In this document: piece after piece, positions 9,498 through 43,967 of the stretch | Position numbering within the stretch: position 1 is the stretch's first letter | How the letters are laid out: each line of letters opens with the position of its first letter | NCBI GenBank assembly: GCA_021815205.1 | Contig: JAKAHD010000005.1 | Location: forward strand, 1 to 59,085 | Length of the DNA: 59,085 nucleotides | Origin: a bacterium | GTDB taxonomy: Bacteria > Patescibacteriota > Minisyncoccia > UBA6257 > GWB1-50-10 | Reading direction: 5' to 3' | Made by a program: the position numbers and the translations under genes | The notes under the pieces: generated by a model | Databases searched by the model: none | Told to the model about the DNA's origin: nothing | What the model saw: only the letters and a program-made list of their open reading frames with translations

Positions 9498-11732
9498 CTA
9501 CCACTCTTCGATAAGAAGGAGAGAGTTTGGTCCCTTGTGGAACTCCTGATAGATCGTTTCGGTGATAAAGGGGAGGAACGGGTGAAGCATTTTAAGGGAC
9601 TCGCGGAGCGCGTACACAAGCACCTGCTGCGTTGCCTGCTTTAATTTTTCGTCCGCGAGCTGTTGCTTCGACGCTTCGAGATATGCATCGCAGAAATCGT
9701 GCCAGAAAAAGTCGTAAAGTCCGCGGAGCGCTTTTGCGAACTGGAATGTTTCAATGTATTCTTCCGTCTGTTTTTTTGTTTTTTGCAGGGACGTCAATAT
9801 TTTTTTGTCGGCCTGCGTTTTTGGCGTTAATTTGAAATTTGAAATTTGAAATTTAGAATTCTCGGTTTGTGCAAGCACAAAACGAGCCGCATTCCAAATC
9901 TTATTGGTAAACTTCCGTCCTGCGACAACCGCCGCCTCATCCCATTTGATGTCCTGCCCGATCGCCTGCCACACAATGCCGAACCGCATGGCGTCCGCGC
10001 CGTATTGCTCGACGTAGCGTAAGGGATCAACGCCGGTCCCAAGCGATTTCGACATGCGCCGCCCGTCTTTTGCGAGTACGGTTCCGTGGATCAGGACATC
10101 CTCGAAGGGCACCTTCCCCTTGAATTCGAGCCCCGAGAAGATCATGCGCGCGACCCAGAGATTTAGAATATCCCGCGCCGTGATAAGGGTATTCCCGGGA
10201 TAATATTTTTTGACATCCGGTGCGGAAAGCCCCGCAAAGGGCCACAGGGCGGATGAAAACCATGTATCCAAGACGTCAGCCGACTGTTCCATTTCACAAT
10301 TTTTACAAAAGGGGCATATCTTCGGCTTCTCGACCGCCACCACGAATTTTGAGTCTTGAGAGCTGTTTGAAAATTGAGAATTGGAAATTGAAAATTCTTC
10401 CTGTTTGGTTTTACAGAACCAAACAGGAAGCCGGTGTCCCCACCAAATCTGCCGCGAGATCGCCCAGTCGCGAATATTTCCGAGCCAGTTGAAATAGAGC
10501 TTCTCGAAGTTTTTGGGCGTGATGCTCACCTTTTTCGTCTTGACCGCGGCAATCGCTTTCTTTGCGAGCCCGGGCATCTTCAAGAACCACTGCATCGAAG
10601 GGAGCGGTTCGATCACGTGCCCGCAACGGTAGCATTTCGAAACTCTATGGAGGTAAAACTCTTCCTTCACGAGAAGCCCGAGCGTTTTCAAATCTTCCAC
10701 CACCTTTTTTCTTGCGTCTTCCGTTTTCATGCCGGCGTATTTACCGGCATTTGCGTTCATCTTTCCCCGTTCGTCGATTACCTGCACCATAGAAAGTTTA
10801 TGCCGCACCCCGATCTCATAGTCGGTCATATCGTGTGCGGGGGTGACCTTAATGACGCCGGTTCCGAATTTCGGGTCGACCGCTTCGTCGCCTACCACAC
10901 GCACTTTCGTTTTCCGCAGCGCGGGATGCTCCAAATCGCCTTCGGTCGAGAGCGTCTCGAATTCAAGTTCTTTCCCAATGAATTTTTTGTAGCGTCTATC
11001 GCGCGGATTTACCGCGAGCGCCGTGTCGCCGAATTTTGTTTCGGGTCGCACCGTTGCGAGGATGAAGGGACCGTACGTTATATAGTACAAAGCCCCATTC
11101 TCATCCTCGTATTCGAGTTCAAGCTCCGAGAGGCTCGTGCCGCATCGGGGACACCAGTTCACGACCCGCTCGCCGCGGTAGATAAGCTTCTTATGATAGT
11201 AATGAACGAACGCATCCCGAACATCTTTCGCATACGCGGGATCCATTGTGAAACGCGTTCGCGACCAGTCGGCGGAGACGCCAATTTTGCGGAGCTGATC
11301 CAAGATTTTCCCTCCATATTCCTTCTTCCATTCCCAGACGCGCTCGATAAACTTCTCGCGCCCCAAGTCGAAGCGGGAAGTTCCTTCTTTGCGGAGCTGT
11401 TTTTCGACGACGTACTGCGTCGCGATGCCCGCATGATCCGTGCCGGGAAGCCACAGCGTTCGGAATCCGCGCATACGATGATAGCGCACCGCGATATCCT
11501 GGAACGTGTTATCCAATGCGTGCCCCATGTGCAACGTCCCCGTCACATTCGGGAGCGGCATATATACTATATAATTTTTAATTTTTAATTTTAAATTTTT
11601 ATTGACGGGTAGACCCACCCGCCGATGAGGCAGGTTATCCGGATTGAAAAAACCGGACTCTTCCCAGAGTTCGTAGGTCTTCAACTCGTGCTCTTTCGGA
11701 TCGTACGGTTTCGAAAAGTCGGCGTGGGGCAT
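9498..11732 (-). CDS. valS: Valyl-tRNA synthetase
   Basis: PNVTGTLHMGHALDNTFQDIAVRYHRMRGF..LPGTDHAGIATQ (HIGH region) and KMSKSLGT. Confidence 0.95.
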   Translation of the reverse strand: MPHADFSKPYDPKEHELKTYELWEESGFFNPDNLPHRRVGLPVNKNLKLKIKNYIVYMPLPNVTGTLHMGHALDNTFQDIAVRYHRMRGFRTLWLPGTDHAGIATQYVVEKQLRKEGTSRFDLGREKFIERVWEWKKEYGGKILDQLRKIGVSADWSRTRFTMDPAYAKDVRDAFVHYYHKKLIYRGERVVNWCPRCGTSLSELELEYEDENGALYYITYGPFILATVRPETKFGDTALAVNPRDRRYKKFIGKELEFETLSTEGDLEHPALRKTKVRVVGDEAVDPKFGTGVIKVTPAHDMTDYEIGVRHKLSMVQVIDERGKMNANAGKYAGMKTEDARKKVVEDLKTLGLLVKEEFYLHRVSKCYRCGHVIEPLPSMQWFLKMPGLAKKAIAAVKTKKVSITPKNFEKLYFNWLGNIRDWAISRQIWWGHRLPVWFCKTKQEEFSISNSQFSNSSQDSKFVVAVEKPKICPFCKNCEMEQSADVLDTWFSSALWPFAGLSAPDVKKYYPGNTLITARDILNLWVARMIFSGLEFKGKVPFEDVLIHGTVLAKDGRRMSKSLGTGVDPLRYVEQYGADAMRFGIVWQAIGQDIKWDEAAVVAGRKFTNKIWNAARFVLAQTENSKFQISNFKLTPKTQADKKILTSLQKTKKQTEEYIETFQFAKALRGLYDFFWHDFCDAYLEASKQQLADEKLKQATQQVLVYALRESLKMLHPFLPFITETIYQEFHKGPNSLLLIEEW
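9829..9856 (-). repeat. In-frame AT-rich 7-nt-period array in valS
   Basis: Plus strand is (AATTTGA)x3 plus one degenerate unit. Encodes SKFQISNFKL. Confidence 0.9.
10368..10395 (-). repeat. In-frame AT-rich 7-nt-period array in valS (imperfect)
   Basis: TGAAAAT TGAGAAT TGGAAAT TGAAAAT. Encodes FSISNSQFS. Confidence 0.8.
11573..11600 (-). repeat. In-frame AT-rich 7-nt-period array in valS
   Basis: AATTTTT AATTTTT AATTTTA AATTTTT. Encodes NLKLKIKN. Confidence 0.85.
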
Positions 11733-12364: not shown

Positions 12365-13474
12365 TTATATCCCCATGTTTCCCTGCGCGGTGATGCGCCG
12401 GTTCTTTTTGCGGAGGATGCTTATATATCCGGCGACGGCGATCATCACGGCGTTATCGGTATTGAAATCCATCGGTGGCGCGAAGAACTGCGCGCCCAGC
12501 TCATGACTTACCACCGACAGCTTATGACGAAGCTCCTTGTTTGCGGCGACGCCGCCCGAGAGGAGGATGGATCTCGCTTTGTATTCTTTCGCGGCGCGCA
12601 CAGTTTTTTTCACTAAAACATCCAATGCCGCCTCCTGGAAGCTTGCTGCCACGTTAGCAGCAAGCACTGATTTTCGCTGATCCTTAGCTGATTGCCGCTG
12701 ATAATTTTTGTCGCGGAGGTAGTACAGCACTGACGTTTTAAGGCCGGAGTAGCTGAAGTCGTAGTTTTTATCGTGGAGCATAGGACGGGGAAACTCGATT
12801 GCGTGCGGATTGCCTTTCGCGCCGAGCTTTTGGATCTCGGGTCCGCCGGGATAGGGGAGGCCGAGCATTTTTGCAACCTTATCGAATGCCTCCCCGACCG
12901 CATCGTCCCGCGTCTCGCCGAGTTTCTTCCATTTTGTGAGCGAATCAACTTTAAGGAGAATGGTGTGCCCGCCCGACACGATAAGGGCGATAGCGGGGAA
13001 AAGAGTTTTTAGTGTATAGTTTTTAGTTGTTAGTTTTTTGGAAAGGAGAAAACTGTATAAATGACCCCCTAAGTGATTTGTCCCTATGAGTTTGAGTTTT
13101 TTGTTCTGAGTTTTTAATTGTTGGTAAAGCTCTTTTGCAAATTCGATACCCGTCCAGAGTGCGGGTTCGAGGCCGGGGCCCACGGTGACGCATACTGCGT
13201 CCAATTTTAAATTTTTGATTTTTAATTTTAAATCAATGTCTGAATTCTTCAATTTTAAATTACTAAAAACTTTTTCTAGGACAACCGGAAGATTCTTCAG
13301 GTGCTCGCGCTTTGCGAGGTTCGGTACGACTCCTCCGAAAGGACGGTGTATCGGAATCTGCGAAGCGATCACACTCTTCAGGATATTGAATTGAGGTGCG
13401 CGAAGGCCACCCGACGCCTCGAGCAACGCTAATGCTGTCTCATCACAGCTCGTTTCTATAGCTAGAATTTTCAT
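12365..13474 (-). CDS. tsaD: tRNA N6-adenosine threonylcarbamoyltransferase
   Basis: MKILAIETSCDETALALL, VTVGPGLEPALWTG, SGGHT and LSGGVAANKELR. The ORF track starts at 13501, but that extension crosses a repeat hairpin. Confidence 0.9.
   Translation of the reverse strand: MKILAIETSCDETALALLEASGGLRAPQFNILKSVIASQIPIHRPFGGVVPNLAKREHLKNLPVVLEKVFSNLKLKNSDIDLKLKIKNLKLDAVCVTVGPGLEPALWTGIEFAKELYQQLKTQNKKLKLIGTNHLGGHLYSFLLSKKLTTKNYTLKTLFPAIALIVSGGHTILLKVDSLTKWKKLGETRDDAVGEAFDKVAKMLGLPYPGGPEIQKLGAKGNPHAIEFPRPMLHDKNYDFSYSGLKTSVLYYLRDKNYQRQSAKDQRKSVLAANVAASFQEAALDVLVKKTVRAAKEYKARSILLSGGVAANKELRHKLSVVSHELGAQFFAPPMDFNTDNAVMIAVAGYISILRKKNRRITAQGNMGI
13203..13230 (-). repeat. In-frame AT-rich 7-nt-period array in tsaD
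   Basis: AATTTTA AATTTTT GATTTTT AATTTTA. Part of a ~22-aa insert, SNLKLKNSDIDLKLKIKNLKLD. A further array lies at 13017-13037. Confidence 0.8.
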
Positions 13475-18541: not shown

Positions 18542-19939
18542 ATGGATTCATTCGAAAAAATCGCGAGCTTGGCGAAGAGAAGGGGCTTTGTGTACCCTGG
18601 CTCCGAGATTTACGGCGGGCTTGCGGGTACGTGGGATTACGGTCCATTAGGCGTTGAACTGAAGAGAAATCTCAAGAACGAATTTTGGCGCTCGATGGTG
18701 CAGCTCCATGAGAATATCGTGGGGCTCGATGCCGCGATCGTTATGCACCCGAAGGTGTGGGAAGCGTCGGGGCATCTGGAATCCTTCTCCGACCCGCTCG
18801 TCGAGTGCAAGAAGTGCCACAGCCGATTTCGTACGGACGAAATCGGAATTTCCAATTTCCAATTTCCAATTTCCAAAGAGATAAAATGCGCGAAATGCGG
18901 GGCAAGCGACTGGACGGAGCCGAAGCGGTTCAACCTGATGGTCGAGACCTATCTCGGCGTAGTTGAAGGGGAAAAGACAAAGACGTATCTCCGCGGCGAG
19001 ATCACGCAGGGTGTGCACGTGAATTTCAAAAATGTGATGGATTCAACGCGGGTGAAGCTGCCGTTCGGTGTGGCACAGATCGGGAAAGCATTTCGGAATG
19101 AAATTACACCCGGAGGATTTACATTTCGTTCCCGCGAATTCGAACAAATGGAGCTTCAGTACTACGTCCGCCCCGACCTCAAGCAATCGATGGAAACGTT
19201 CGAATACTGGAAGAAAGAGCGGATGGACTGGTATGTTTCGCTCGGCATGAAAAAGGAAAATTTGCGGTTCAAAGAACACGCAAAAGACGAGCTCGCCCAT
19301 TATGCGTTGGCCGCGTTCGACATCGAATATAGCACGGAGGGCGAGTGGAAAGAAATGGAAGGCGTCCATCATCGCGGCGACTGGGATCTGAAGCGACATC
19401 AGGAATTCTCGAAAGAAGACATGACCTACTTCGACGAGGAAACGAAGGAACGGTATCTTCCTTATATTATTGAAACATCCGGAGGGGTGGACAGAGCCGC
19501 ACTTTTTTTCTTAATTGATGCATACACCGAGGAAAAAATTCCAAATTCCAAATTCCAAATTCCAAATAATTCCGAAATACAAAATTCAAATAACGAAAAC
19601 GGAACTCCGGATGCGAGGATCGTATTGAAACTCCATCCGCGCCTTGCGCCATACAAGGTTGCCGTTTTTCCACTTTTAGCTAACAAACCGGAGCTCGTCA
19701 AGGTAGCTAAAAAAATCAACGACGATTTGAAAAAAGATTTTATGGTCGCGTGGGACGATCGCGGCAATATCGGCAAACGCTACCGCGCGCAGGACGAAGC
19801 GGGTACGCCCTTCTGCATCACGGTTGATTTCGACAGCTTGGAGAATAACGATGTTACTATCCGCAACCGCGACACGATGCAACAAGAGCGCGTGAAAATT
19901 GCGGACCTTAAAGCGTATCTCGCGGAAAAGCTCGAATAA
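18542..19939 (+). CDS. glyQS: Glycyl-tRNA synthetase (class II, dimeric type)
   Basis: RRGFVYPGSEIYGGLAGTWDYGPLGVELKRN, FRNEITPGGFTFRSREFEQMELQYY and IETSGGVDR. Confidence 0.95.
   Translation: MDSFEKIASLAKRRGFVYPGSEIYGGLAGTWDYGPLGVELKRNLKNEFWRSMVQLHENIVGLDAAIVMHPKVWEASGHLESFSDPLVECKKCHSRFRTDEIGISNFQFPISKEIKCAKCGASDWTEPKRFNLMVETYLGVVEGEKTKTYLRGEITQGVHVNFKNVMDSTRVKLPFGVAQIGKAFRNEITPGGFTFRSREFEQMELQYYVRPDLKQSMETFEYWKKERMDWYVSLGMKKENLRFKEHAKDELAHYALAAFDIEYSTEGEWKEMEGVHHRGDWDLKRHQEFSKEDMTYFDEETKERYLPYIIETSGGVDRAALFFLIDAYTEEKIPNSKFQIPNNSEIQNSNNENGTPDARIVLKLHPRLAPYKVAVFPLLANKPELVKVAKKINDDLKKDFMVAWDDRGNIGKRYRAQDEAGTPFCITVDFDSLENNDVTIRNRDTMQQERVKIADLKAYLAEKLE
18847..18874 (+). repeat. In-frame AT-rich 7-nt array in glyQS
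   Basis: (AATTTCC)x4. Encodes ISNFQFPIS. Confidence 0.95.
19536..19595 (+). repeat. In-frame AT-rich 7-nt array in glyQS with a degenerate tail
   Basis: (AAATTCC)x4, then AAATAATTCCGAAATACAAAATTCAAATAAC. Encodes IPNSKFQIPNNSEIQNSNN. Confidence 0.95.
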
Positions 19940-32070: not shown

Positions 32071-32124
32071 GAAAAATGAAAGACGAGAATAGTGTTCCCG
32101 TCTTTTAATTTTTGAATGGAGGCG

Positions 32125-32760
32125 TCATCGATTTTTGATGACGATTTTCTGAATCTCCTGAAATGAGGAGATTTTTTGTTTTCCTCCGTAGTTGGGTTTC
32201 GCGGCCGCGATCTGGCGGAAAGAATGGTACCCGCCGCAGATGCCGATCGTTTTCACGCCGGCACGATTTCCCGCGAGGATGTCGTTGGAGGTGTCGGCGA
32301 CGAATACGGTTTCATCCGGTGATACTCCGTATCGGTTCATGAGATCGAGAATGCTCTTTGTTTTATTTTTTGAGCTTACTATTTCATCAACCCGTATTCC
32401 TTTGCGCCGCAACATCTTTTCGATTGTGCGGACGTTATTAAAACTCAAGACAACCGTTTTTATATCGAGCGGTCTGCATACCGCGAAGAACATTACTACA
32501 TCGAACGGAATGAGGAACTCTTTTATATGCTCGCGCACGTATTCTCGCTCCATTTTCCGTATCATTTTTTGGGAGAAAGAGATTTTATATTTTTTATAGA
32601 ATCTCTCCACCCCGTATCTCGTAATATCATGCATGAATTTGGAAAGTGGCGGAGGTTCTTTGCTGTCTTCGTGAAATATTTTTTGTATGAAACTATGGTA
32701 GATTTTCTGGCTGCGAACAATTGTTCCATCATGGTCCGAAATAAAAAGTTTAATACCCAT
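32125..32760 (-). CDS. HAD-superfamily hydrolase
   Basis: LFISDHDGTIV (DxDGT) and VFVADTSNDILAGNRAGVKTIG. Confidence 0.75.
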   Translation of the reverse strand: MGIKLFISDHDGTIVRSQKIYHSFIQKIFHEDSKEPPPLSKFMHDITRYGVERFYKKYKISFSQKMIRKMEREYVREHIKEFLIPFDVVMFFAVCRPLDIKTVVLSFNNVRTIEKMLRRKGIRVDEIVSSKNKTKSILDLMNRYGVSPDETVFVADTSNDILAGNRAGVKTIGICGGYHSFRQIAAAKPNYGGKQKISSFQEIQKIVIKNR

Positions 32761-32812
32761 AACAACCCTCTCTTCTTGTCTTATTGATATTGATTTTTAA
32801 AATAACGGTTTT

Positions 32813-32882
32813 ATCCCGTGAGAAGCAGAAAACCCCGTGGCGAACGCGGGGTTTACCACCCCGTATGGGCTTCTCACGGGAT
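32813..32882. repeat. Nested palindromic repeat (CCCGTGAGAAGC family), short form
   Basis: Equals the long form at 12128 minus the segment between its two CCCGTGG repeats. Confidence 0.85.
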
Positions 32883-32919
32883 TTATATTACGGAAATTTC
32901 GTGTATACTGCAAGTAATT

Positions 32920-33846
32920 ATGTCCACAGATCTGAAGTTTTTCGACGCGCATACCCATACGAACCTCGCGGCGTTCAGAGATGATTACCGGGAGGCGGTA
33001 GGGAGAATGCTCGACGCGGGCGGCGGGCTTATCAATGTCGGAACCCAGAAAGATACATCTCGCCGCGCGGTCGAGATCGCGCATGAATTCTCCTCCGAGG
33101 GCGGAGATGCACCGGTTTTCGCGGCCGTCGGTTTGCATCCGATCCACACAAGCGCCTCGTTTCACGACGAAGAAGAGCTTGGCCCCCCCTTCGCTCCTGC
33201 GGTCGGAGCTACGGGGGGCAAAGAGCGGCGAAACAGCTTCATGAGTAGAAGCGAAATATTCGACCACGAGTACTACAAAAAACTCGCCCTCGACCCGAAG
33301 GTGGTGGGGATTGGAGAATGCGGCCTCGACTACTACCGAATAGAGAATAACGAATTAGGAATTAGGGAAAAACAAATTGCGGCATTTGAGGAACAGATAA
33401 AATTGGCGCACGAGGTCCAAAAACCGCTCATGATTCACTGCAGGAAGGCGTTCAACGATCTCATCGATATTATAATTCATAATTCCAAGTTCCTGATTCA
33501 AGATAATCCGGGCATCATCCATTTTTTTACCGGTACAAAAGAGGATGCGGCAAAACTGCTGGAACTCGGATTCTCATTCACGTTCGGCGGCGTCGTGACC
33601 TTCCCGCCTAGGGCGGGCAAGCGCGAAGGGGATTACGATGAAGTGATAAAATTCTTGCCGCTTGACCGCATCTTGAGTGAGACGGATGCGCCATACGTCG
33701 CGCCGGTGCCCTATCGCGGGAAACGCAACGAGCCCATGTATGTACAAGAGGTAGTAAAAAAACTCGCCGAACTGAAAGAGATCTCCGAAGAGGAGATGAG
33801 GAGCATCACTGTGAAAAACACGAAGAGAGTCTTCGGGCTTGCGTAA
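32920..33846 (+). CDS. TatD-family metal-dependent hydrolase
   Basis: FFDAHTHTN, GECGLDY, MIHCR and ETDAPY. The ORF-track N-terminus (32818) is a translation of the repeat. Confidence 0.85.
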   Translation: MSTDLKFFDAHTHTNLAAFRDDYREAVGRMLDAGGGLINVGTQKDTSRRAVEIAHEFSSEGGDAPVFAAVGLHPIHTSASFHDEEELGPPFAPAVGATGGKERRNSFMSRSEIFDHEYYKKLALDPKVVGIGECGLDYYRIENNELGIREKQIAAFEEQIKLAHEVQKPLMIHCRKAFNDLIDIIIHNSKFLIQDNPGIIHFFTGTKEDAAKLLELGFSFTFGGVVTFPPRAGKREGDYDEVIKFLPLDRILSETDAPYVAPVPYRGKRNEPMYVQEVVKKLAELKEISEEEMRSITVKNTKRVFGLA

Positions 33847-33848
33847 GG

Positions 33849-33888
33849 TTTACTAACCTACGTGACGATCGTCACGTAGGTTAGTAAA
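33849..33888. repeat. 40-nt perfect palindrome
   Basis: TTTACTAACCTACGTGACGA|TCGTCACGTAGGTTAGTAAA. Confidence 0.9.
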
Positions 33889-33897
33889 GAGGTCAAA

Positions 33898-33933
33898 TAC
33901 CAAATTATAACGCCATGGCGTTATAATTTGGTA
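33898..33933. repeat. 36-nt perfect palindrome
   Basis: TACCAAATTATAACGCCA|TGGCGTTATAATTTGGTA. Confidence 0.9.
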
Positions 33934-33989
33934 GAGAATGGCGTTTTGAACGTCGTTCCTTTTTAGGGTACTATAAATCAATACAAAAC

Positions 33990-36776
33990 ATGCAGAAGTA
34001 CAATTTTTCGGCTATAGAAAAGAAATGGCAGAGGATGTGGAAGAAGAAGAAAATCTACGAGCCTGATCTCAAAAAAGCAAAGAAACCGTTCTACAATCTC
34101 ATGATGTTTCCGTACCCTTCGGCCGAGGGGCTCCATGTGGGGAATATGTACGCCTTCACAGGAAGCGATATCTACGGCCGGTTCAAACGTATGCAGGGGT
34201 ACGACGTCTTCGAGCCGATTGGTCTCGACGGGTTTGGCATCCATTCTGAGAACTACGCCTTAAAGCTCGGCGCGCACCCATTGGCGCAATCGAAAGTTTC
34301 CGAGAAGCGATTCTATAAACAACTTGAGATGGTGGGGAACGGGTTTGCGTGGAATGAGCGGCTTGAGACCTATGATCCCGGATACTACAAATGGACGCAG
34401 TGGCTCTTCGTACAAATGTGGAAACACGGGCTCGCCTACCGCAAAAAGCAGGCGGTGAACTGGTGCCCGAGTTGCAAAACCGTGCTTGCGGACGAGCAGG
34501 TCATCACAAAATCAAAAATCAAAAATCAAAGTTCAAAATTACAAAACGGAACACGCGAAGAGATGATAAGCGTCTGCGAACGGTGCGAGACGACGGTTAT
34601 AAAAAAAGAGCTCGAGCAGTGGTTTTTCAGGATCACGAAGTATGCGGAGCGGCTGCTTGAGAATCTGGAGAAAATCGACTGGTCCGAGAAGGTGAAAATT
34701 GCGCAAAGGAACTGGATCGGTCGGAGTATCGGAGCGGAAATCGAGTTTCCGCTCCGATACTCCGCGCAGAATGACGCGGAATTGACGCGGAAGAACGCGG
34801 AAATCAATCGGTTGGTGGGTCAGCGTAATTCAGCGTCCAGTCAGCGAGATTCCGCGACTTTGACATCAGTCAAAGTATTCACCACAAGGCCCGACACCCT
34901 GTTCGGGGCGACATATCTTGTGCTCGCGCCGGAACATGCCGCAATTTCAAATTTCAAATTTCAAATTTCAAATTACGACGAAGTTGAGAAATATATCGCG
35001 ACCGCGAAGAAGAAATCGGACGAAGAGCGAATAGAGAACAAAGAAAAGACCGGCGTTGAACTCAAGGGAGTGAAAGCGGTAAACCCCGCGAATAAGGAGG
35101 AGCTCCCGATCTTCGTCGCGGACTATGTGCTCTCGGGATACGGCACGGGCGCGATTATGGCGGTACCCAGCCATGATTCAAGAGATTTTGATTTTGCCAG
35201 GAAATTCAAATTACCCATACGTGAGGTGGTGATTCCGGATGCGTCAAATTCCAAATTCCAAATTCCAAATGTCCAAATAAATCCCAATAACCAAAATTCA
35301 AAAACAGCAGAGTTCTACGAGGGTGATGGAGTTTTAATAAACTCCGGAAAGTTTGACGGAATGGATTCGGAGAAGGCGAAGTGGGAGATCACGAAATTCG
35401 TGGGGGGAAAGCGCACGACACAATTTCGCCTCCGCGACTGGCTCATTTCCCGCCAGCGCTATTGGGGTCCGCCGATACCCATCATATACTGCCGTACATG
35501 CTGGGAATTATCAATTTCCAATTTCCAATTTCCAAATAATTCCGACCAATCAAACGAACGAGAAAGAAAACTTGAATACGGGGTGCACTACACGGTACTT
35601 GATGGGAAGGAATACATGATCCACCCTGTTCCTGAAGAGGACTTGCCAGTCATACTTCCAATGGTTGATGATTTTCGCCCGCAAGGGAAGGGCGAATCGC
35701 CGCTTGCGTCGGTCAGGGAATTCTATGAAACAAAGTGCCCTGTGTGCGGCGGCGCGGCACGCCGCGAAACCGATGTTTCCGACACCTTCCTCGACTCCGC
35801 ATGGTACTATATCGGTTTTCTCGCGAAAACCTCCAATTTTAAATTTGAAATTTTAAATTTGAAATTCAGGGACATCGCAGAGCGATGGCTCCCTGTTAGC
35901 ATGTACATCGGCGGCGCCGAGCACTCGGTGCTCCATCTCCTCTATGTCCGCTTTATTGCACTCGCGCTCCGTGATATGCAGCTCCTCGATTTCCCCTCCG
36001 CAACCGGTGAGCCCTTTCCGAAGTTCCGCGCGCACGGACTCCTGATCAAGGATGGCATGAAGATGTCGAAATCGAAGGGGAATGTGGTGAACCCCGACGA
36101 ATACATCAAGAAGTTCGGTGCGGACGCCTTCCGTATGTACCTCATGTTCCTCGCGCCTTTCGAACAAGGCGGCGATTTCCGCGAGCAGGGAATCTTAGGC
36201 ATCGAACGGTTCCTCACGCGTGTGCGGAAACTCGTCGAGGCGTCGCTCGACAAGAAAAAGCCGATGCGTCCCGAATCGAAATCAGCCGCACCGCATAAGA
36301 CACCCGACAACTTCAAAAGCGCCATTCACCGGACCATAAAGAAGGTGACGGAGGATATTGAAACCCTTCATTACAACACGGCGGTGAGCGCGCTTATGAT
36401 TCTTTTGAATGAAGCGGAAGCGCAGGCAGAGACGATTCATCTGCCGCGGTACTTCTATGAGGTCTTCTTGAAACTCCTCGCGCCCTTCGCGCCATACCTC
36501 GCGGAGGAGCTTTGGAGTAGAATGGGAGAGAAGAGATCGATTCATCGCGCGGCGTGGCCGACCTATAACCCGAAGATGCTCGTTGCAGAAACCTTCCCGC
36601 TTGTGGTGCAGGTAAGCGGCAAGTACAAGGCGACCGTGGATGCTCCCCGCGATATCGGTGAAGCAGAGGCCCGCGCGCTTGCGCTTCGAAATCCCGCAGT
36701 GGCAAAAGCGATCGGCGAGACGAAGCCAAAAAGGATTATTTTTGTGAAGAACCGCATTATTAACTTCGCGCTCTAG
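33990..36776 (+). CDS. leuS: Leucyl-tRNA synthetase, with at least six low-complexity insertions
   Basis: PYPSAEGLHVGNMYAFTGSDIYGRF (HIGH region), VFTTRPDTLFGATYLVLAPEH, and KMSKSKGN. Confidence 0.95.
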   Translation: MQKYNFSAIEKKWQRMWKKKKIYEPDLKKAKKPFYNLMMFPYPSAEGLHVGNMYAFTGSDIYGRFKRMQGYDVFEPIGLDGFGIHSENYALKLGAHPLAQSKVSEKRFYKQLEMVGNGFAWNERLETYDPGYYKWTQWLFVQMWKHGLAYRKKQAVNWCPSCKTVLADEQVITKSKIKNQSSKLQNGTREEMISVCERCETTVIKKELEQWFFRITKYAERLLENLEKIDWSEKVKIAQRNWIGRSIGAEIEFPLRYSAQNDAELTRKNAEINRLVGQRNSASSQRDSATLTSVKVFTTRPDTLFGATYLVLAPEHAAISNFKFQISNYDEVEKYIATAKKKSDEERIENKEKTGVELKGVKAVNPANKEELPIFVADYVLSGYGTGAIMAVPSHDSRDFDFARKFKLPIREVVIPDASNSKFQIPNVQINPNNQNSKTAEFYEGDGVLINSGKFDGMDSEKAKWEITKFVGGKRTTQFRLRDWLISRQRYWGPPIPIIYCRTCWELSISNFQFPNNSDQSNERERKLEYGVHYTVLDGKEYMIHPVPEEDLPVILPMVDDFRPQGKGESPLASVREFYETKCPVCGGAARRETDVSDTFLDSAWYYIGFLAKTSNFKFEILNLKFRDIAERWLPVSMYIGGAEHSVLHLLYVRFIALALRDMQLLDFPSATGEPFPKFRAHGLLIKDGMKMSKSKGNVVNPDEYIKKFGADAFRMYLMFLAPFEQGGDFREQGILGIERFLTRVRKLVEASLDKKKPMRPESKSAAPHKTPDNFKSAIHRTIKKVTEDIETLHYNTAVSALMILLNEAEAQAETIHLPRYFYEVFLKLLAPFAPYLAEELWSRMGEKRSIHRAAWPTYNPKMLVAETFPLVVQVSGKYKATVDAPRDIGEAEARALALRNPAVAKAIGETKPKRIIFVKNRIINFAL
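34506..34547 (+). repeat. In-frame AT-rich 7-nt array in leuS
   Basis: ACAAAAT CAAAAAT CAAAAAT CAAAGTT CAAAATT ACAAAAC. Encodes KSKIKNQSSKLQN. Confidence 0.9.
34762..34858 (+). repeat. In-frame GC-richer insert (ACGCGGAA / CAGCGAGATTCCGCG family) in leuS
   Basis: GAATGACGCGGAATTGACGCGGAAGAACGCGGAAA...TTCAGCGTCCAGTCAGCGAGATTCCGCG. Encodes NDAELTRKNAEINRLVGQRNSASSQRDSA. Confidence 0.85.
34943..34974 (+). repeat. In-frame AT-rich 7-nt array in leuS
   Basis: (AATTTCA)x4 plus AATT. Encodes ISNFKFQISN. Confidence 0.95.
35246..35303 (+). repeat. In-frame AT-rich 7-nt array in leuS with a degenerate tail
   Basis: (AAATTCC)x3, then AAATGTCCAAATAAATCCCAATAACCAAAATTCAAAAAC. Encodes NSKFQIPNVQINPNNQNSK. 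Confidence 0.9.
35513..35543 (+). repeat. In-frame AT-rich 7-nt array in leuS
   Basis: (AATTTCC)x3, then AAATAATTCC. The tail CCAAATAATTCCGA is also found in the glyQS array at 19562. Confidence 0.9.
35835..35866 (+). repeat. In-frame AT-rich 14-nt (2x7) array in leuS
   Basis: (AATTTTAAATTTGA)x2 plus AATT. Encodes NFKFEILNLKF. Confidence 0.9.
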
Positions 36777-36782
36777 AAAAGT

Positions 36783-37739
36783 ATGAAAAACGTTCTTGTA
36801 ATTATTGTCCTCATCATTGTTGTGATCGCAATCTATAACGTGTTCATGTACATGAAGCAGGGCGTGAGTTTTGGCGGCGGGGGAGTAAGTTCGCTTTTCA
36901 AATTGCCATACAATATTCCGAAAGGATATCAGGGATCAATCTCGTCTTCGCCCGCAACTGCGGGGATTACTTCCACGCCTCCGCCATCGGTGAGAAATAA
37001 TTCGGGGAACGGAAGTGCGCAGAACAATACTCCCACCCCCGATCAGCCGAAGATTACGCCGCCTACCGGATTCACAATAGATCAAATTTCCCCGTATTAC
37101 GAGCAGGTAAGCATAAATGGTGTGTCGCCCGCATGGTCCTGGACCGCGGTCGGCCAGTTCTCGCTCCGGGTAGATAGCTCGCTTAAGAAGGGAGTTGATA
37201 TCACGGGGTGGCGCGTGAGATCGAACAGGGGAGAGGTCCTTGTGCCGCAGGCGGTGCAGAACTACGATCCGTCGGGACTCTCACTTTCCGGTGATGTCGT
37301 GCTCGCGCCCGGAGCGTATGCGGTGTTCTATAGTTCCGCGAGTCCTCTTGGATTGAACCTCCGTATGAACAAGTGCATCGGATACCTCAATACCACCTAC
37401 CAGTTCAATCCTTCACTCCCCTCGTATTGTCCGAACGCATACGATCGGTCGGAGATTGCGACGTTTTCGGGGCAGTGCCAAAATCTTATCTTCTCGCTCG
37501 GCGGGTGCAGTGTACCAAGCGCGGCGCAACTGAACAGCGTATCACGCGAGGCGGCGTGTATGGACTACTTGAACCGCTTCAACTACACGGGATGCTATCG
37601 AAAACACCTGAACGACGCGGATTTTTTCTCGAATGAGTGGAGAATATGGATTGGAAGCCCCCTCCCGCTTGATGCGAGCCACGACCGATTGCTTCTTTTT
37701 GATAAGAATGGATTACTGGTTGATCAGTATATCTACTAA
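36783..37739 (+). CDS. Membrane-anchored secreted protein, possible lamin-tail-like (LTD) domain
   Basis: N-terminal TM (VLVIIVLIIVVIAIYNVF), an S/T/P-rich linker, then DITGWRVRSNRGEVLVP...VLAPGAYAVFYS and Cys pairs. Confidence 0.5.
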   Translation: MKNVLVIIVLIIVVIAIYNVFMYMKQGVSFGGGGVSSLFKLPYNIPKGYQGSISSSPATAGITSTPPPSVRNNSGNGSAQNNTPTPDQPKITPPTGFTIDQISPYYEQVSINGVSPAWSWTAVGQFSLRVDSSLKKGVDITGWRVRSNRGEVLVPQAVQNYDPSGLSLSGDVVLAPGAYAVFYSSASPLGLNLRMNKCIGYLNTTYQFNPSLPSYCPNAYDRSEIATFSGQCQNLIFSLGGCSVPSAAQLNSVSREAACMDYLNRFNYTGCYRKHLNDADFFSNEWRIWIGSPLPLDASHDRLLLFDKNGLLVDQYIY

Positions 37740-37847
37740 CGCACGAATGCGACACGAATTCCCAGGAATTTCACGAATACGCGAGCAATACGCTATCCGT
37801 TCGGCGTATTTATGATATTGGTGAGCTATTCGTGCCGCATCGGCGCG

Positions 37848-38900
37848 TTACTTCCTCTCCGCAAGCACCGCTTTCGTCTCGAATATCTTCTTATTTCTCA
37901 TCACGGAGAGCGTTACCGTATCTCCTACTTCGCAGTCCTCAAGAAGATCCTGGAGCGTCATCGAAGTCGTGATTCTTTTCCCGTTCCATGTGAGGATTAT
38001 ATCGTGCTCCTTAATGCCCGCGTGATCGGCGGGGCTTTGAGGAATCACCGCCGTATCGAACGAGTGCTCTTTCGTTACGAACGCCCCATACTCGGAGGGG
38101 ATTTTCATTTTTTCCGCGATGTCGCGATTCAAGGTGAGATAACGGACACCGAAGAGAGGTCGGAGAATCTTTCCATGTTCCACAAGATCCCTAATATCAT
38201 GCTCTGCCGCCTTGATGGGAATCGCGAAGCTGATATTCTGCGCGCCGACCACAACCGCGGCATTAATACCCACCGCTCTTCCGAAAATATCAACGAGCGG
38301 GCCTCCCGAGTTCCCGGGATTGATCGCCGCATCCGTTTGAATAAGTCCGCGCAACTCCTGGGAAGCGGAACCTTCTCCCGTTTTTGCTTGCACCGCGCGC
38401 GAGAGGCCGGAGACGATGCCGACCGAGACGGTATTTTTGAAAAGGCCGAGGGCGTTCCCGAATGCGAGCACGGTCTGCCCGAGTTCCAGCGCATCCGAAT
38501 CGCCCAAGGAAAGCGAAGGAAGCGATGTGTTTGCTTTGATCTTCAGGATTGCGACATCGTTCAAGGGATCGCGCGCCACAACCTCCGCGTCGTAGGCGGC
38601 GTCATCGCTTGTCACCACGGAGTAGGAAACACCCGGTTCGTTCACTACGTGTTTGTTAGTGAGAATAATTCCTTTAGGATTCACAATGAACCCGGACCCG
38701 CCGCCCACCTGCACCATGCCGTGCGCATTAATCTTTTCGGGAGGGATCGCGAGCTCCACTTTCTTGCCCTTTTGACGCTCGAGTTTCGGGATCTCCTTCT
38801 TCAGGTCTTCCACATTCTTGAGGAGCACGATCGAAACGACGGTCGGCATAACCTTGCGTATGGTAGTGATGGTTTTCGAACGTTCTTTTTGCAGATGCAT
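37848..38900 (-). CDS. HtrA/DegP-like serine protease with PDZ domain
   Basis: GSGFIVNPKGIILTNKHVV (His), D in DVAILKI, and GNSGGPLVD (Ser). A C-terminal PDZ-like region is present. Confidence 0.85.
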   Translation of the reverse strand: MHLQKERSKTITTIRKVMPTVVSIVLLKNVEDLKKEIPKLERQKGKKVELAIPPEKINAHGMVQVGGGSGFIVNPKGIILTNKHVVNEPGVSYSVVTSDDAAYDAEVVARDPLNDVAILKIKANTSLPSLSLGDSDALELGQTVLAFGNALGLFKNTVSVGIVSGLSRAVQAKTGEGSASQELRGLIQTDAAINPGNSGGPLVDIFGRAVGINAAVVVGAQNISFAIPIKAAEHDIRDLVEHGKILRPLFGVRYLTLNRDIAEKMKIPSEYGAFVTKEHSFDTAVIPQSPADHAGIKEHDIILTWNGKRITTSMTLQDLLEDCEVGDTVTLSVMRNKKIFETKAVLAERK

Positions 38901-39239
38901 GTATATGCATATTGTAGCAGAGAAACGAAAACGCCGCCCTGTGTGCGAGGCGCGGCGCCATCATCAATGAAAATCCGCCCCTCAAGCGAGGGACGGATCA
39001 GAGAAGACTATTTCTTCTTTTTTTTCTTGCCACCCTTTTTCTTCGGGGCCGCCTTCCTTTTCTTTGCCATTTTTTTGAGCGCGCTACGCTTTATTTTTAG
39101 GAAGAGACGTTGGGTCGTCGACCATCGATCTCGTCAATTCCCCCTACACTCTTATTATAGAGAAAAAATTTTTTGAAATCTGTGGATAACTTAATAAGAA
39201 ACTTCGCAGCGCATAATTCGCCCGAAAAGTTTCTACAAA

Positions 39240-39608
39240 CTAAGATTCGCCGAAGAGATGGTAGTGGTGTACAAGCGCGAGATAGATCCCTGCAAGCGCG
39301 AAAAATCCGAACATACCCGCCGCGATGGCGTATCTCGATCCAATCCTCGGGGCAAGATAGGCGACGAGTGCCATATAGGGAACCCACGAGACGATCGTGC
39401 CGATTAAAACGAACCATGCGTGCTGGCCCACGGCGGCGCCCCCGCGGGTCTCTCCAATGAAGAAGTAAGCAACGAGCGTGAAAACCGGCATAAGTGTTGC
39501 AAACCCAGAAAGGAGCCGGGAGCCGTTCTCCTCAAGCGCGACAATAAGCACCGTAAAGATGCCGCCCGTGAGGAAATAGACGAGATAACTTTTGATATGG
39601 ATCCACAT
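39240..39608 (-). CDS. Small 4-TM membrane protein (GlpM/DUF3147-like; tentative)
   Basis: 122 aa, strongly hydrophobic, with no catalytic motif. Confidence 0.5.
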   Translation of the reverse strand: MWIHIKSYLVYFLTGGIFTVLIVALEENGSRLLSGFATLMPVFTLVAYFFIGETRGGAAVGQHAWFVLIGTIVSWVPYMALVAYLAPRIGSRYAIAAGMFGFFALAGIYLALVHHYHLFGES

Positions 39609-39655
39609 ACATTCATTATAGAAAATTCAGGGGGAAGTGCTATGATAAAAGAATT

Positions 39656-40123
39656 ATGGATGCCGTTGCCATCGTGATCGCAAAATACTTTTACCTCGTC
39701 GTACTCGCCTTGGCCGCGGTTTACTTTTTCCTCCAGCCGGGGAGGATAAAGAAAGCGATGGTGATCTGCGGGGTGATTATTGCGCCGCTTGCATATCTCA
39801 TTGCAAAGAGTGCGGGGCACTTCTATGATAATGCCCGTCCGTTCGTTGTGGGTCACTTCACGCCGCTCATCGCGCACGCGGCTGACAACGGCTTTCCGTC
39901 GGATCACGTGCTCCTTACGGCCGCCGTCGCGATGATCGTCTTCTTCTTCAATAAGAAATGGAGCGCCGTACTCTTCGTGCTCGCGGCACTGATCGGCTGG
40001 GCAAGAGTCTATAGCGGCATCCATCATGTGACGGATGTTGTGGGAAGTATTGCAATCGCGCTTCTTGCGGGAGGCGTGTACCGTCTCCTCGCCAAAAAAT
40101 TCGGCTGGGAGGTGAAGGGATAG
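39656..40123 (+). CDS. PAP2-family phosphatase (undecaprenyl-diphosphatase-like)
   Basis: YDNARPF, FPSDH and RVYSGIHHVTDV match the three PAP2 motifs. Confidence 0.8.
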   Translation: MDAVAIVIAKYFYLVVLALAAVYFFLQPGRIKKAMVICGVIIAPLAYLIAKSAGHFYDNARPFVVGHFTPLIAHAADNGFPSDHVLLTAAVAMIVFFFNKKWSAVLFVLAALIGWARVYSGIHHVTDVVGSIAIALLAGGVYRLLAKKFGWEVKG

Positions 40124-43966: not shown

Positions 43967-43967
43967 A

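What the first reader, a model, noticed from the sequence alone, without database searches (positions are those of the whole stretch)
34506..35866. AT-rich arrays with a 7-nt period inserted in frame inside essential, conserved genes (valS, tsaD, glyQS, leuS)
At least 11 arrays of units such as AATTTCA, AATTTCC, AAATTCC, AAAATCA and AATTTTT lie inside coding sequence. They are at leuS 34506, 34943, 35246, 35513 and 35835; glyQS 18847 and 19536; valS 9829, 10368 and 11573; and tsaD 13203 (plus 13017). On the coding strand they always read in the same A-to-T sense and never create a stop. They yield 7-aa periodic peptides such as ISNFKFQ, ISNFQFP and NSKFQIP. These peptides interrupt otherwise highly conserved aaRS/TsaD sequence, and the arrays are far more AT-rich than their host genes. 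Two arrays in different genes (19562 and 35533) share the same 14-nt tail, CCAAATAATTCCGA. That argues for a common inserted sequence family rather than independent local slippage. A 7-nt microsatellite in an essential gene is notable: gain or loss of one unit would frameshift the gene, and only changes of three units keep the frame.
Basis: partly seen in the sequence, partly recalled or inferred. Interest (0 to 1): 0.7.

Follow-up and report, generated by a model that had tools for sequence, protein, structure and literature searches.

The report
Seven-base repeats inside essential bacterial genes
Short runs of a repeated 7-base unit sit in frame inside essential enzymes of this ultra-small (Patescibacteria/CPR) bacterium, apparently copied from neighbouring codons rather than inserted; the same happens across the phylum, and they still mutate, since another assembly of the same strain has lost one unit and so broken the reading frame of leuS.

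Summary
The window holds 9 strong period-7 arrays (12 counting degenerate ones), against 0.005 expected and none at periods 4-6 or 8-12. All lie in leuS, valS, glyQS and tsaD, in frame and stop-free.

The 'common inserted family' reading is not supported. In 80 LeuRS loci, period-7 arrays number 83, against 5 or fewer for any other period. They occur only in Patescibacteria and use dozens of different units. In LeuRS they cluster at about 10 hot-spot loops.

Unit sequence tracks the site, not the genome, because arrays copy adjacent conserved codons. At two hot spots they overwrite sequence without changing loop length. Perfect inverted copies of flanking conserved codons also sit at loop borders. 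Orientation is mostly forced by stop avoidance. Copy number peaks at 4-5.

Best explanation: local slippage or template switching with a 7-nt register, filtered by selection. An independent assembly of the same clone differs over 15.3 kb only by one AATTTCA unit in leuS, which frameshifts the gene.

Why the step is 7 nt, why LeuRS loops are so dense, and how the frameshift allele is tolerated remain open. I found no published description.

The parts
34943..34974 (+). leuS hot spot S3: AATTTCA x4.6, peptide AISNFKFQISN. Same loop length as in array-less orthologues. Polymorphic: 3.6 copies in an independent assembly, which frameshifts leuS.
34503..34538 (+). leuS hot spot S1: ATCAAAA x5.0 (86% matches), peptide ITKSKIKNQSSK. 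Lies in a ~20-aa insertion between the two Cys pairs of the zinc knuckle.
   Evidence: AF2 pLDDT <50 at residues 179-185
35245..35278 (+). leuS hot spot S4: CAAATTC x4.7, peptide SNSKFQIPNVQI. Lies in a long variable loop of the editing domain. Some relatives carry a whole Nudix domain inserted in this enzyme (position read by eye).
   Evidence: pLDDT <50 at residues 420-439
35512..35545 (+). leuS hot spot S5: CAATTTC x3.4 plus the tail CCAAATAATTCCGA shared with glyQS; peptide SISNFQFPNNSD. Lies inside a ~40-aa insertion.
   Evidence: pLDDT <50 at residues 513-526
35835..35866 (+). leuS hot spot S6: AATTTTAAATTTGA (14-nt super-unit of a 7-nt period) x2.3, peptide NFKFEILNLKF. It is the reverse-type unit, with G-to-T changes that avoid an in-frame TGA.
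34722..34764 (+). leuS hot spot S2: perfect 19-nt inverted repeat with a 5-nt loop. The left arm is conserved codons (RSIGAEI); the right arm is the first codons of the variable loop (FPLRYS). Read as a templated inverted copy.
34765..34856 (+). leuS S2b insertion (~36 aa). Built from 21-nt-spaced direct repeats, with ACGCGGAA and TCAGCG motifs recurring every 10-11 nt.
18847..18876 (+). glyQS: AATTTCC x4.3 (100% matches), peptide GISNFQFPIS. No net insertion relative to the GlyRS structure 8u2q.
19536..19593 (+). glyQS: AAATTCC x4.6 followed by degenerate units, peptide KIPNSKFQIPNNSEIQNSNN. A 16-aa insertion relative to the GlyRS structure 8u2q.
9829..9860 (-). valS: AAATTTC x3.7 on the coding strand, peptide ENSKFQISNFKL. 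About 5 extra residues relative to T. thermophilus ValRS (1GAX).
10367..10430 (-). valS: 7-nt array TTTTCAA x4.3 (10367-10396, peptide FSISNSQFSNS), directly next to a perfect 14-nt inverted repeat (10397-10430, encoding LPVWFCKTKQEE). Together they form a ~12-aa insertion.
11572..11601 (-). valS: AAAATTA x4.3 on the coding strand, peptide KNLKLKIKN. Lies inside a 15-aa N-terminal insertion.
13203..13233 (-). tsaD: TAAAATT x4.4, peptide LKLKIKNLKL. Lies inside a 13-aa insertion relative to the TsaD structure 6nak.
13004..13038 (-). tsaD: degenerate AAAAACT x5 (78% matches), peptide KKLTTKNYTLKT. About 8 extra residues relative to 6nak.
12660..12705 (-). tsaD: ATCAGCG motif x4 at a 10-11-nt period, peptide QRQSAKDQRKSV. 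A 12-aa insertion; the same motif and period occur in the leuS S2b insertion.

Best explanation
The arrays are translated, in-frame heptanucleotide microsatellites. Each has about 4-5 copies of a 7-nt unit, roughly 30 nt, encoding a peptide of about 10 aa with a 7-aa period. They fill the length-tolerant surface loops of housekeeping enzymes in a Patescibacteria (CPR) genome.

They are not a mobile insert. They arise in place by local templated copying:
- slipped-strand or template-switch synthesis with a 7-nt register, seeded from neighbouring resident codons;
- the same loops also receive perfect inverted ('snap-back') copies of adjacent conserved codons.

Selection then filters the products:
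- only stop-free units and orientations survive, which gives the order A-run, T-run, then C;
- only net length changes divisible by 3 survive, and the smallest all-repeat step is 3 units (21 nt), which gives 4.x copies;
- only tolerant loops survive.

Shown:
- the period-7 excess across the phylum;
- hot-spot recurrence and rapid turnover between close relatives;
- seeding from local codons;
- the stop filter;
- a live one-unit polymorphism that frameshifts leuS.

Inferred:
- that replication or repair slippage is the mechanism;
- the '+3 units' origin of the 4-5-copy peak;
- that the encoded peptides are largely neutral loop filler.

Unknown: why the step is 7 nt.
For: - Period 7 is unique. 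The window has 9 arrays against 0 at other periods and 0.005 in shuffles. The 80 LeuRS loci (1.17 Mb) have 83 arrays against 5 or fewer at any other period from 4 to 12. None occur in the roughly 12 non-CPR outgroup loci.
- Units are diverse. Unit similarity tracks site (p=0.0005), not genome (p=0.26).
- 89 arrays in 57 CPR LeuRS genes fall into about 10 hot spots.
- Seeding: by my count from the table, 17 of 20 S3 arrays encode the I-x-N motif, which is also conserved in array-less orthologues.
- Relatives 80-84% identical, with near-identical flanks, have entirely different sequence and length at the array sites.
- 80 of 113 coding units would contain a stop if reversed. Among the 27 units that are free either way, orientation is balanced (15 A>T against 10 T>A). 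Orientation follows the coding strand in the minus-strand genes valS and tsaD.
- Coding arrays peak at 4.0-5.0 copies (74 of 113). Intergenic arrays spread from 2.9 to 15.7 copies.
- Perfect inverted repeats (arm at least 11 nt) in LeuRS ORFs number 13, against 0-1 in codon shuffles. They sit at loop borders, with one arm in conserved codons. The window has two such cases.
- Assembly L081 equals the window over 15.3 kb with 0 mismatches, except for one AATTTCA unit missing in leuS. The other eleven arrays are identical wherever the further contigs of the same clone (L082-L089, L091-L095) cover them.
- The AF2 model gives low confidence at S1, S4, S5 and S6.
- Heptamer SSR excess in bacteria, and a polymerase-slippage hypothesis for it, are on record, as summarised in PMC4679880 and PMC4692102.
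Against: - Period-7 density in LeuRS (0.585/kb) is 7 times that of the rest of the same loci (0.081/kb). By my rough estimate it also exceeds the density in intergenic DNA. A purely neutral mutation-plus-tolerance model does not obviously predict this.
- At S2 and S3, which hold 40 of the 89 arrays, loop length is unchanged. Simple expansion is therefore not enough; compensating deletions or conversion-like overwriting are needed.
- A one-step gain of three units is inferred, not observed. Indels between close relatives come in many sizes.
- Inverted-repeat arms at S5 differ in sequence between three genomes yet pair perfectly within each. That could instead indicate selected hairpins.
- A frameshifted leuS allele that was assembled as the consensus, with the same contig recorded in two samples, is hard to reconcile with a purely deleterious slippage product.
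- The origin of the 7-nt step is unexplained.
Confidence: 0.62

Rival explanations
1. The arrays are adaptive. They make hypervariable, fast-evolving surface loops on aminoacyl-tRNA synthetases and other core enzymes, or they act as contingency loci that switch or tune expression. On this view selection, not mere tolerance, keeps arrays at these loops.
For: - LeuRS loops are 7 times denser in arrays than the rest of the same loci, and by my estimate denser than intergenic DNA.
- The same ~10 loops carry arrays across the phylum.
- The sites are hypervariable between close relatives.
- A one-unit OFF allele exists in nature.
- In neuO, heptad number tunes enzyme activity (PMC3046976).
Against: - Hosts are diverse: aaRSs, TsaD, RlmN, TatD, M16 peptidase, FolD, RecO, TopA and others. 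No common function is apparent.
- Units have no shared sequence.
- Arrays are short (4-5 copies), unlike contingency loci.
- Switching off a presumably single-copy, essential aaRS has no obvious benefit.
- None of the 80 GTDB representative loci has a frameshifted LeuRS.
Confidence: 0.17
2. The arrays act at the RNA or translation level. AAATTTC units are canonical X_XXY_YYZ slippery heptamers, so arrays might support -1 ribosomal frameshifting that rescues or regulates out-of-frame alleles. Alternatively, heptamer repeats could bind cold-shock-type proteins, one protein per 7 nt.
For: - In the 3.6-copy allele an in-phase A_AAT_TTC is present. A -1 shift there would give a 926-aa LeuRS lacking only 'KF'.
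- CspB binds heptamer direct repeats (PMC4679880).
Against: - Most units across the phylum (AAATCCG, AGGTGTC, AGCTTCG and others) are not slippery.
- No downstream stimulatory structure was looked for, and none stood out.
- In-frame alleles dominate.
- There is no expression data.
Confidence: 0.06
3. This is the first reader's reading: a family of short AT-rich sequences inserted from a common source into several genes.
For: - Related AAWTTYC units occur in four genes of the window.
- glyQS and leuS share a 14-16-nt tail.
Against: - Units differ widely between sites and genomes.
- Unit similarity tracks the site, not the genome.
- Arrays include resident conserved codons, and at two hot spots loop length is unchanged.
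- No terminal repeats or target duplications were noticed.
- AAWTTYC-type units are simply the commonest stop-free A/T-rich units across the phylum.
Confidence: 0.04
4. The arrays are assembly or polishing artefacts, or the host genes are pseudogenes.
For: One assembly carries a frameshifted leuS.
Against: - Identical arrays were recovered in NCBI, ENA and Logan assemblies from at least 5 runs.
- Arrays occur at orthologous sites in dozens of MAGs from unrelated studies.
- The arrays (about 32 nt) are far shorter than the reads and than the assembler's k of 141.
- The ORFs are full length and align end to end with solved structures.
Confidence: 0.01

Closest known systems
neuO poly-psi VNTR of E. 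coli K1 prophage CUS-3 (heptanucleotide AAGACTC in the 5' coding region; PMC3046976)
   Same: - A 7-nt unit tandemly repeated inside an ORF and translated through all three frames into a 7-aa periodic peptide (RLKTQDS).
- The gene is in frame only when the unit number changes by multiples of three; single-unit slippage gives a frameshift.
- The encoded stretch is disordered.
- The unit has a similar style: A-rich and ending in C.
   Different: - neuO is a single accessory gene with 2-93 copies right after the start codon, and it acts as a genuine high-frequency phase switch.
- Here the arrays have 4-5 copies, lie in internal loops of many essential housekeeping genes, use many different units, and occur phylum-wide.
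Excess of heptanucleotide SSRs in bacterial genomes (Mrazek et al. 2007, as summarised in PMC4679880 and PMC4692102); Xanthomonas/Nostoc GGGNATC repeats, cyanobacterial heptamer repeats (known to me as STRR), Beggiatoaceae TAACTGA repeats
   Same: - Period 7 stands out among SSR unit sizes.
- About four units are preferred in Xanthomonas and Nostoc.
- A polymerase-slippage origin with a 7-nt contact length has been proposed.
   Different: - Those repeats are one or a few specific units per genome, mostly intergenic, and depleted in coding sequence.
- Non-triplet units are reported to be the least likely inside genes.
- Here the units are highly diverse and, in the sampled loci, densest inside an essential gene (leuS).
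Low-complexity inserts in Plasmodium housekeeping proteins, and tandem repeats in Borg elements that create disordered regions (PMC9879509)
   Same: - Lineage-specific repetitive stretches arise by DNA-level repeat dynamics.
- They are tolerated in loops of conserved proteins and evolve fast.
   Different: - Plasmodium inserts follow extreme genomic AT bias and are built from codon-level (triplet) repeats (from my own knowledge). As I recall, Borg repeat units inside ORFs are multiples of 3 nt (PMC9879509; only its abstract was seen here).
- Here the genome is 48% GC and the unit is 7 nt.
Template-switch or quasi-palindrome mutagenesis in E. coli, and templated insertions of polymerase-theta-type end joining (from my own knowledge, not tested here)
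   Same: Nearby sequence is copied in direct (tandem) and inverted (snap-back) orientation. The result is perfect short duplications and hairpins next to their templates.
   Different: - No enzyme has been identified in this lineage.
- Those processes have no known 7-nt register.

Membership tests
Simple sequence repeat (microsatellite) with a 7-nt unit | Head-to-tail copies of a short unit, far above chance expectation | tested here: met
   TRF and my own scan give 9-12 arrays in the window, against 0.005 in shuffles and none at other periods.
Simple sequence repeat (microsatellite) with a 7-nt unit | Copy number varies by whole units between individuals (slippage) | tested here: met
   L081 has exactly one AATTTCA unit fewer, with 0 other differences in 15.3 kb. 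The other arrays are invariant in the contigs available.
Phase-variable contingency locus (neuO poly-psi type) | Non-triplet repeat inside the ORF, so that unit changes switch the reading frame | tested here: met
   The unit is 7 nt, and the one-unit variant splits leuS into ORFs of 345 and 568 aa.
Phase-variable contingency locus (neuO poly-psi type) | Long, highly unstable tract with ON and OFF alleles both common | tested here: inconclusive
   Arrays have only 3.4-5 copies. One OFF contig was seen (recorded in 2 samples) against several ON contigs. None of the 80 representative LeuRS loci is frameshifted. No read-level frequencies are available.
Phase-variable contingency locus (neuO poly-psi type) | Sits in accessory surface, virulence or restriction-modification genes, usually near the 5' end | tested here: not met
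   The hosts are essential aaRSs, TsaD and similar genes, and the arrays lie in internal loops.
Mobile short insert (MITE-like element or common inserted family) | Copies share a conserved sequence with defined ends | tested here: not met
   There are dozens of unrelated units. Similarity tracks site, not genome. Only one 14-16-nt tail is shared, by two arrays.
Mobile short insert (MITE-like element or common inserted family) | Filled sites are longer than empty sites by the element's length | tested here: not met
   At S2 and S3, loops with and without arrays have the same length (10 and 16 aa). At S1, S4 and S5 the loops are longer, but by varying amounts.
G-quadruplex-type, STRR or TAACTGA heptamer repeats of Xanthomonas, cyanobacteria and Beggiatoaceae | One specific consensus unit per genome, mainly intergenic | tested here: not met
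   Units are diverse and mostly A/T-rich. 113 of 128 scored arrays are coding.
Programmed -1 ribosomal frameshift site | X_XXY_YYZ heptamer in the zero frame | tested here: met
   A_AAT_TTC is in phase in the leuS S3 array, in both alleles. Most units in other genomes do not fit the pattern.
Programmed -1 ribosomal frameshift site | A downstream stimulatory structure, and two protein products | not testable with these tools
   No expression or proteomic data are available, and a stimulatory structure was not examined.
Intrinsically disordered or low-complexity loop insert in a conserved enzyme | Located in surface loops outside the conserved core, with a low-confidence or disordered prediction | tested here: inconclusive
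   AF2 gives pLDDT <50 at S1, S2b, S4 and S5 and about 50-58 at S6. S3 is confident (88), and the overall model is only moderate (mean 73).

The most novel reading that the evidence does not exclude
The loops are not passive junk. On this reading, Patescibacteria have an active 7-nt-register templated-copying process that preferentially rewrites specific surface loops of aminoacyl-tRNA synthetases and other core enzymes, a built-in loop diversifier. Out-of-frame intermediates such as the 3.6-copy leuS allele would be tolerated because the repeat itself is a slippery heptamer that allows -1 ribosomal frameshifting, or because of polyploidy. An essential gene could then pass through frameshifted states.
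Probability: 0.1. Interest if true: 0.9.

Novelty: new variant of a known kind. Interest (0 to 1): 0.7.

Why it matters
Non-triplet microsatellites are expected to be purged from essential coding sequence. In the sampled Patescibacteria loci they are instead several-fold denser inside an essential gene (leuS) than in the surrounding DNA, at the same loops, and they are still mutating.

If this holds up, it would:
- show that one unusual mutational process (a 7-nt register plus inverted templated copies) shapes protein surface loops in a very large group of bacteria;
- give a tractable system for the long-noted but unexplained excess of heptamer repeats in bacteria;
- raise the question of how a clonal population carries a frameshifted leuS allele (recoding, polyploidy or very high switching);
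- explain many odd 'ISNFKFQ'-type low-complexity stretches and split gene calls in CPR genome annotations.

Tried and rejected
- tRNA-enzyme specificity. All four hosts in the window bind tRNA. I rejected this as an exclusive rule because relatives carry arrays in TatD, M16 peptidase, FolD, RecO, TopA, a HAD hydrolase, glycosyltransferases, an integrase and others, while the window's MetRS has none. The aaRS enrichment is quantitative only.
- Genome-specific templating or inter-array gene conversion. Unit similarity is not associated with the genome (p=0.26).
- Coiled-coil heptads. Several of the encoded peptides contain proline and do not fit an a/d hydrophobic pattern (sequence inspection).
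- Replication-strand asymmetry. Array orientation follows the coding strand in the minus-strand genes valS and tsaD.
- Clean 7-aa quanta in indels between close relatives. Indel sizes are heterogeneous.
- More alleles of the leuS array in JGI metagenomes. No match was found.
- Literature. Eight full-text searches found nothing on heptanucleotide coding repeats in CPR/Patescibacteria.
- Rfam. Only tRNAs were found in the window; there is no T-box or other element at the arrays.
- Frameshifted LeuRS in other genomes. None among the 80 loci.


Full report
**1. The observation.**
- Under one scoring rule the window (59 kb, 48% GC) has 9 arrays at period 7 and none at periods 4-6 or 8-12.
- Shuffling within 40-nt blocks, which preserves local composition, gives 0.005 arrays on average.
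- Including degenerate cases there are 12 arrays, all inside four ORFs: leuS 33990-36776 (+), glyQS 18542-19939 (+), valS 9498-11732 (-) and tsaD 12365-13501 (-).
- All four ORFs are full length and align end to end with solved LeuRS, GlyRS, ValRS and TsaD structures.
- About 35 other genes in the window have no strong array. These include MetRS, IF-2, a Mur ligase, helicases and transporters. Only weak two-copy traces occur in TatD and near the start of DoxX.
- The arrays have 0-29% GC. The 14-nt tail shared by glyQS and leuS is real.

**2. The organism, and how widespread the arrays are.**
The closest LeuRS homologues (65% identity or less, apart from the same strain) are from Patescibacteria/CPR: Paceibacteria, and Jorgensenbacteria- and Liptonbacteria-like MAGs.
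- In 80 LeuRS loci from GTDB species representatives (1.17 Mb), period-7 arrays number 83. Every other period from 4 to 12 has 5 or fewer.
- They occur in Paceibacteria and in Microgenomates (Levy-, Davies- and Gottesmanbacteria).
- They are absent from the roughly 12 non-CPR outgroup loci, which include Dehalococcoidia, Thermoflexus, Dormibacteria, Gemmatimonadales and Carboxydothermus.
- The units are very diverse: AATTTCC, AATTTTC, AAATCTC, AAGAATC, AAATCCG, AGGTGTC, AGGGGTC, AGCTTCG and others.
- What stays constant is the 7-nt step, not a particular sequence.

**3. Hot spots and turnover.**
- Mapping 89 arrays from 57 CPR LeuRS genes onto window coordinates gives about 10 hot spots. They lie near residues 173-178, 255-259, 269-278, 323-326, 424, 511-521, 612-621, 751-760, 815-821, 848 and 885. 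The window's five leuS arrays occupy five of these.
- Period-7 density is 0.585/kb in LeuRS against 0.081/kb in the rest of the same loci. Other periods show no such enrichment.
- Outside LeuRS, 21 of 60 arrays are intergenic.
- Coding hosts include ArgRS (three genomes), GlyRS, IleRS, MetRS, TsaD, RlmN, TatD (four), M16 peptidase (two), FolD, RecO, TopA, a HAD hydrolase, a metallo-beta-lactamase-fold protein, a glycosyltransferase, an integrase, a transposase and hypothetical proteins. Synthetases are enriched but are not the only hosts.
- LeuRS proteins 80-84% identical overall, with nearly identical flanks, have completely different sequence and length at the array sites. The loops therefore turn over much faster than the rest of the protein.

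**4. The arrays are made in place, not inserted.**
- Unit similarity is associated with the site (permutation p=0.0005) and not with the genome (p=0.26).
- The reason is visible at site S3 (window residues 318-329). By my count from the table, 17 of 20 arrays there encode I-x-N, a motif also conserved in array-less orthologues (consensus xIxNxxEV).
  - A 7-nt unit that must read ATH-nnn-AAY across the period has the form ATHnnnA.
  - All the S3 units fit this form: ATTTCAA, ATCTCAA, ATTCAAA, ATTAGGA, ATCAAGA and so on.
  - The arrays are therefore copies of resident codons.
  - This also explains why the identical peptide ISNFKFQIS appears in LeuRS proteins only about 60% identical to the window's.
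- Loop-length comparison shows two patterns.
  - At S1, S4 and S5, arrays come with net insertions. The same holds for glyQS 19536, both tsaD arrays and all three valS arrays when compared with PDB homologues.
  - At S2 and S3, which hold 40 of the 89 arrays, loops with and without arrays have the same length (10 and 16 aa). There the periodic sequence has overwritten earlier sequence.

**5. A second templated signature.**
- The window's leuS carries a perfect 19-nt inverted repeat with a 5-nt loop (34722-34764). Its left arm is conserved codons (RSIGAEI) and its right arm starts variable loop S2.
- valS carries a perfect 14-nt inverted repeat (10397-10430) directly next to the 10367 array.
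- Across the 57 LeuRS ORFs, perfect inverted repeats with arms of at least 11 nt and loops of at most 12 nt number 13. Codon shuffles give 0-1.
- They sit at loop borders: S2, the start of S5 in three genomes, and the end of S6 in three genomes. One arm lies in conserved codons and the other in the loop.
- The arms differ in sequence between genomes but pair perfectly within each genome.
- Direct 7-nt tandem copies together with inverted copies of adjacent sequence are what local template switching (slippage and snap-back synthesis) produces. This is an inference drawn from the pattern.

**6. The selection filter.**
- In a 7-nt repeat the ribosome reads all three frames of the unit every 21 nt. 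A unit is therefore viable only if it is stop-free in every frame when read cyclically.
- With A-runs and T-runs, T followed by A gives TAA and TTGAA gives TGA. The only viable order is A-run, T-run, then C, which is exactly AAATTTC, AATTTCC and AAATTCC.
- Of 113 coding arrays, 80 have a reverse complement that contains a stop.
- Among the 27 units viable in both orientations, orientation is balanced (A>T in 15, T>A in 10).
- Orientation follows the coding strand in the minus-strand genes.
- The leuS 35835 array is the reverse-type unit, rescued by alternate G-to-T changes.
- Coding arrays peak sharply at 4.0-5.0 copies (74 of 113), with few at 5.5-7 and a small group at 7-8.5. Intergenic arrays range from 2.9 to 15.7 copies, with 8 of 15 above 5.
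- I read the peak as a resident seed (one unit plus a few bases) plus the smallest in-frame all-repeat gain, three units or 21 nt. This is an inference. A preference for about four units is also reported for intergenic heptamers in Xanthomonas and Nostoc (PMC4692102), and indels between close relatives are not only multiples of 7 aa.

**7. The arrays are still mutable.**
- Protein P0004, a 568-aa 'short' LeuRS, led to contig ERZ27237554:k141_900668 (L081, 15,286 nt). The same contig is recorded in two samples.
- It is identical to window 25585-40877 with zero mismatches and a single gap: one AATTTCA unit fewer in the S3 array (3.6 against 4.6 copies).
- There leuS is frameshifted (...ISNFKFQITTKLRNISRPRRRNRTKSE*) and is called as two ORFs of 345 and 568 aa.
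- NCBI GCA_027423515.1 carries the in-frame allele. Logan contigs from four sequencing runs cover S4-S6 and are identical to the window.
- All valS, tsaD and glyQS arrays are identical in seven further contigs.
- In an otherwise SNP-free clone, the only difference found in unique sequence is a one-unit change in a 7-nt array.
- An array of 32 nt is far shorter than the reads and than the assembler's k of 141, so an assembly collapse is unlikely. Read frequencies could not be examined.
- In the 3.6-copy allele an in-phase A_AAT_TTC (the X_XXY_YYZ form) is present. A -1 shift there would yield a 926-aa LeuRS lacking only 'KF'. This is only a possibility.
- None of the 80 representative loci has a frameshifted LeuRS.

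**8. Structure.**
An AlphaFold2 model of the window's LeuRS (mean pLDDT 73) has pLDDT below 50 at 179-185 (S1), 279-290 (S2b), 420-439 (S4) and 513-526 (S5). It gives about 50-58 over 611-630 (S6). S3 is modelled confidently (88) as helix-turn. This fits mostly flexible loops, but the model is only moderate.

**9. Comparison with what is known.**
- The nearest described case is the neuO poly-psi VNTR. It is a heptanucleotide (AAGACTC) repeat in an ORF, translated into RLKTQDS heptads, in frame only when the unit count is a multiple of three, and disordered (PMC3046976). It differs in being a single accessory gene with up to 93 copies next to the start codon, acting as a phase switch.
- An excess of heptamer SSRs in bacteria, and the idea that 7 nt reflects a polymerase contact length, are on record (Mrazek 2007 as summarised in PMC4679880; PMC4692102). 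Those repeats are mostly intergenic, use one or a few units per genome, and are depleted in coding sequence.
- Plasmodium low-complexity inserts and Borg tandem repeats (PMC9879509) are similar in outcome but, from my own knowledge and recall, are built on triplet-compatible units.
- Eight full-text searches found no description of heptanucleotide coding repeats in CPR/Patescibacteria.

**10. Verdict.**
- The 'inserted family' interpretation is replaced by in-place, 7-nt-register templated copying under a translational filter. Confidence is about 0.6.
- An adaptive reading cannot be excluded. The very high density in LeuRS loops, the length-neutral overwriting and the assembled frameshift allele all leave room for it.
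- Novelty: a new variant of a known kind (coding heptanucleotide SSRs), notable for its phylum-wide scale and its location in essential genes.

Noticed in passing
window 34722-34764 (leuS) and 10397-10430 (valS): Perfect 19-nt and 14-nt inverted repeats lie inside coding sequence at the borders of variable loops. One arm is conserved codons and the other is loop codons. The same pattern recurs in LeuRS of other CPR genomes (13 observed against 0-1 expected). The arms differ between genomes but pair perfectly within each.
   Followed up: yes
window 34765-34856 (leuS) and 12660-12705 (tsaD, minus strand): A second kind of in-frame repetitive insert. The motif TCAGCG (ATCAGCG) recurs 3-4 times every 10-11 nt in both genes. 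In leuS it follows ACGCGGAA repeats and 21-nt-spaced direct repeats. It encodes QR.SA-type peptides. Four matches were found against 0.23 expected.
   Followed up: partly
window 20133-20402 and 25585-25850; island about 20.2-25.6 kb: Roughly 270-nt direct repeats (95.6% identical, each containing a 57-nt hairpin element) flank a 5.4-kb block of hypothetical genes. The block is absent from other assemblies of the same strain (L082, L085), where glyQS is followed directly by the 303-aa gene. This is a presence/absence polymorphism within the clone.
   Followed up: partly
window 40165-45714 and 45830-52464: Two large serine recombinases (40454-42139 and 44089-45714) sit next to tRNA genes (40165-40606 and 44014-44100). 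About 110-nt elements at 45830-45939 and 52355-52464, mutually inverted, bracket a DNA methylase, a ResIII helicase and hypothetical genes. This looks like an integrated mobile island carrying a restriction-modification-like system.
   Followed up: no
window 33849-33888 and 33898-33933 (upstream of leuS); 19946-19999 (after glyQS): A 40-nt palindrome and a perfect 36-nt palindrome containing TATAAT lie between tatD and leuS. A 27-nt-arm hairpin follows the glyQS stop codon. They may be operator, promoter or terminator elements.
   Followed up: no
window 6612-6637, 7367-7392 (Mur-ligase gene) and 26823-26850: Perfect 26-28-nt palindromes, two of them inside a coding sequence. Two share the core GCTATGCTA/TAGCATAGC.
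   Followed up: no
LeuRS homologues P0001, P0003, P0006, P0017, P0021, P0038, P0042 and others: Many CPR LeuRS proteins (about 950-1230 aa) carry whole extra domains: Nudix PF00293, alpha/beta-hydrolase PF00561/PF12697/PF06821, or Ham1 PF01725. In P0001 and P0003 the Nudix-containing insert appears, by eye, to sit in the editing-domain loop that holds the window's 35245 array.
   Followed up: partly
window 35133-35138: Logan contigs from four independent sequencing runs all start at this point inside leuS, within the conserved ADYVLSGYGTGAIMAVP codons. One possible cause is a 31-mer shared with related species in the same samples.
   Followed up: no
window 13616-13663 and 13701-13722 (tsaD-doxX spacer and start of the DoxX ORF); 33352-33366 (tatD): Further short periodic tracts: a 14-nt period TTTAATTTTGCAC x3.5, ATATACT x3.1, and GAATTAG x2.1. 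TatD orthologues in four other CPR genomes carry full 7-nt arrays.
   Followed up: partly
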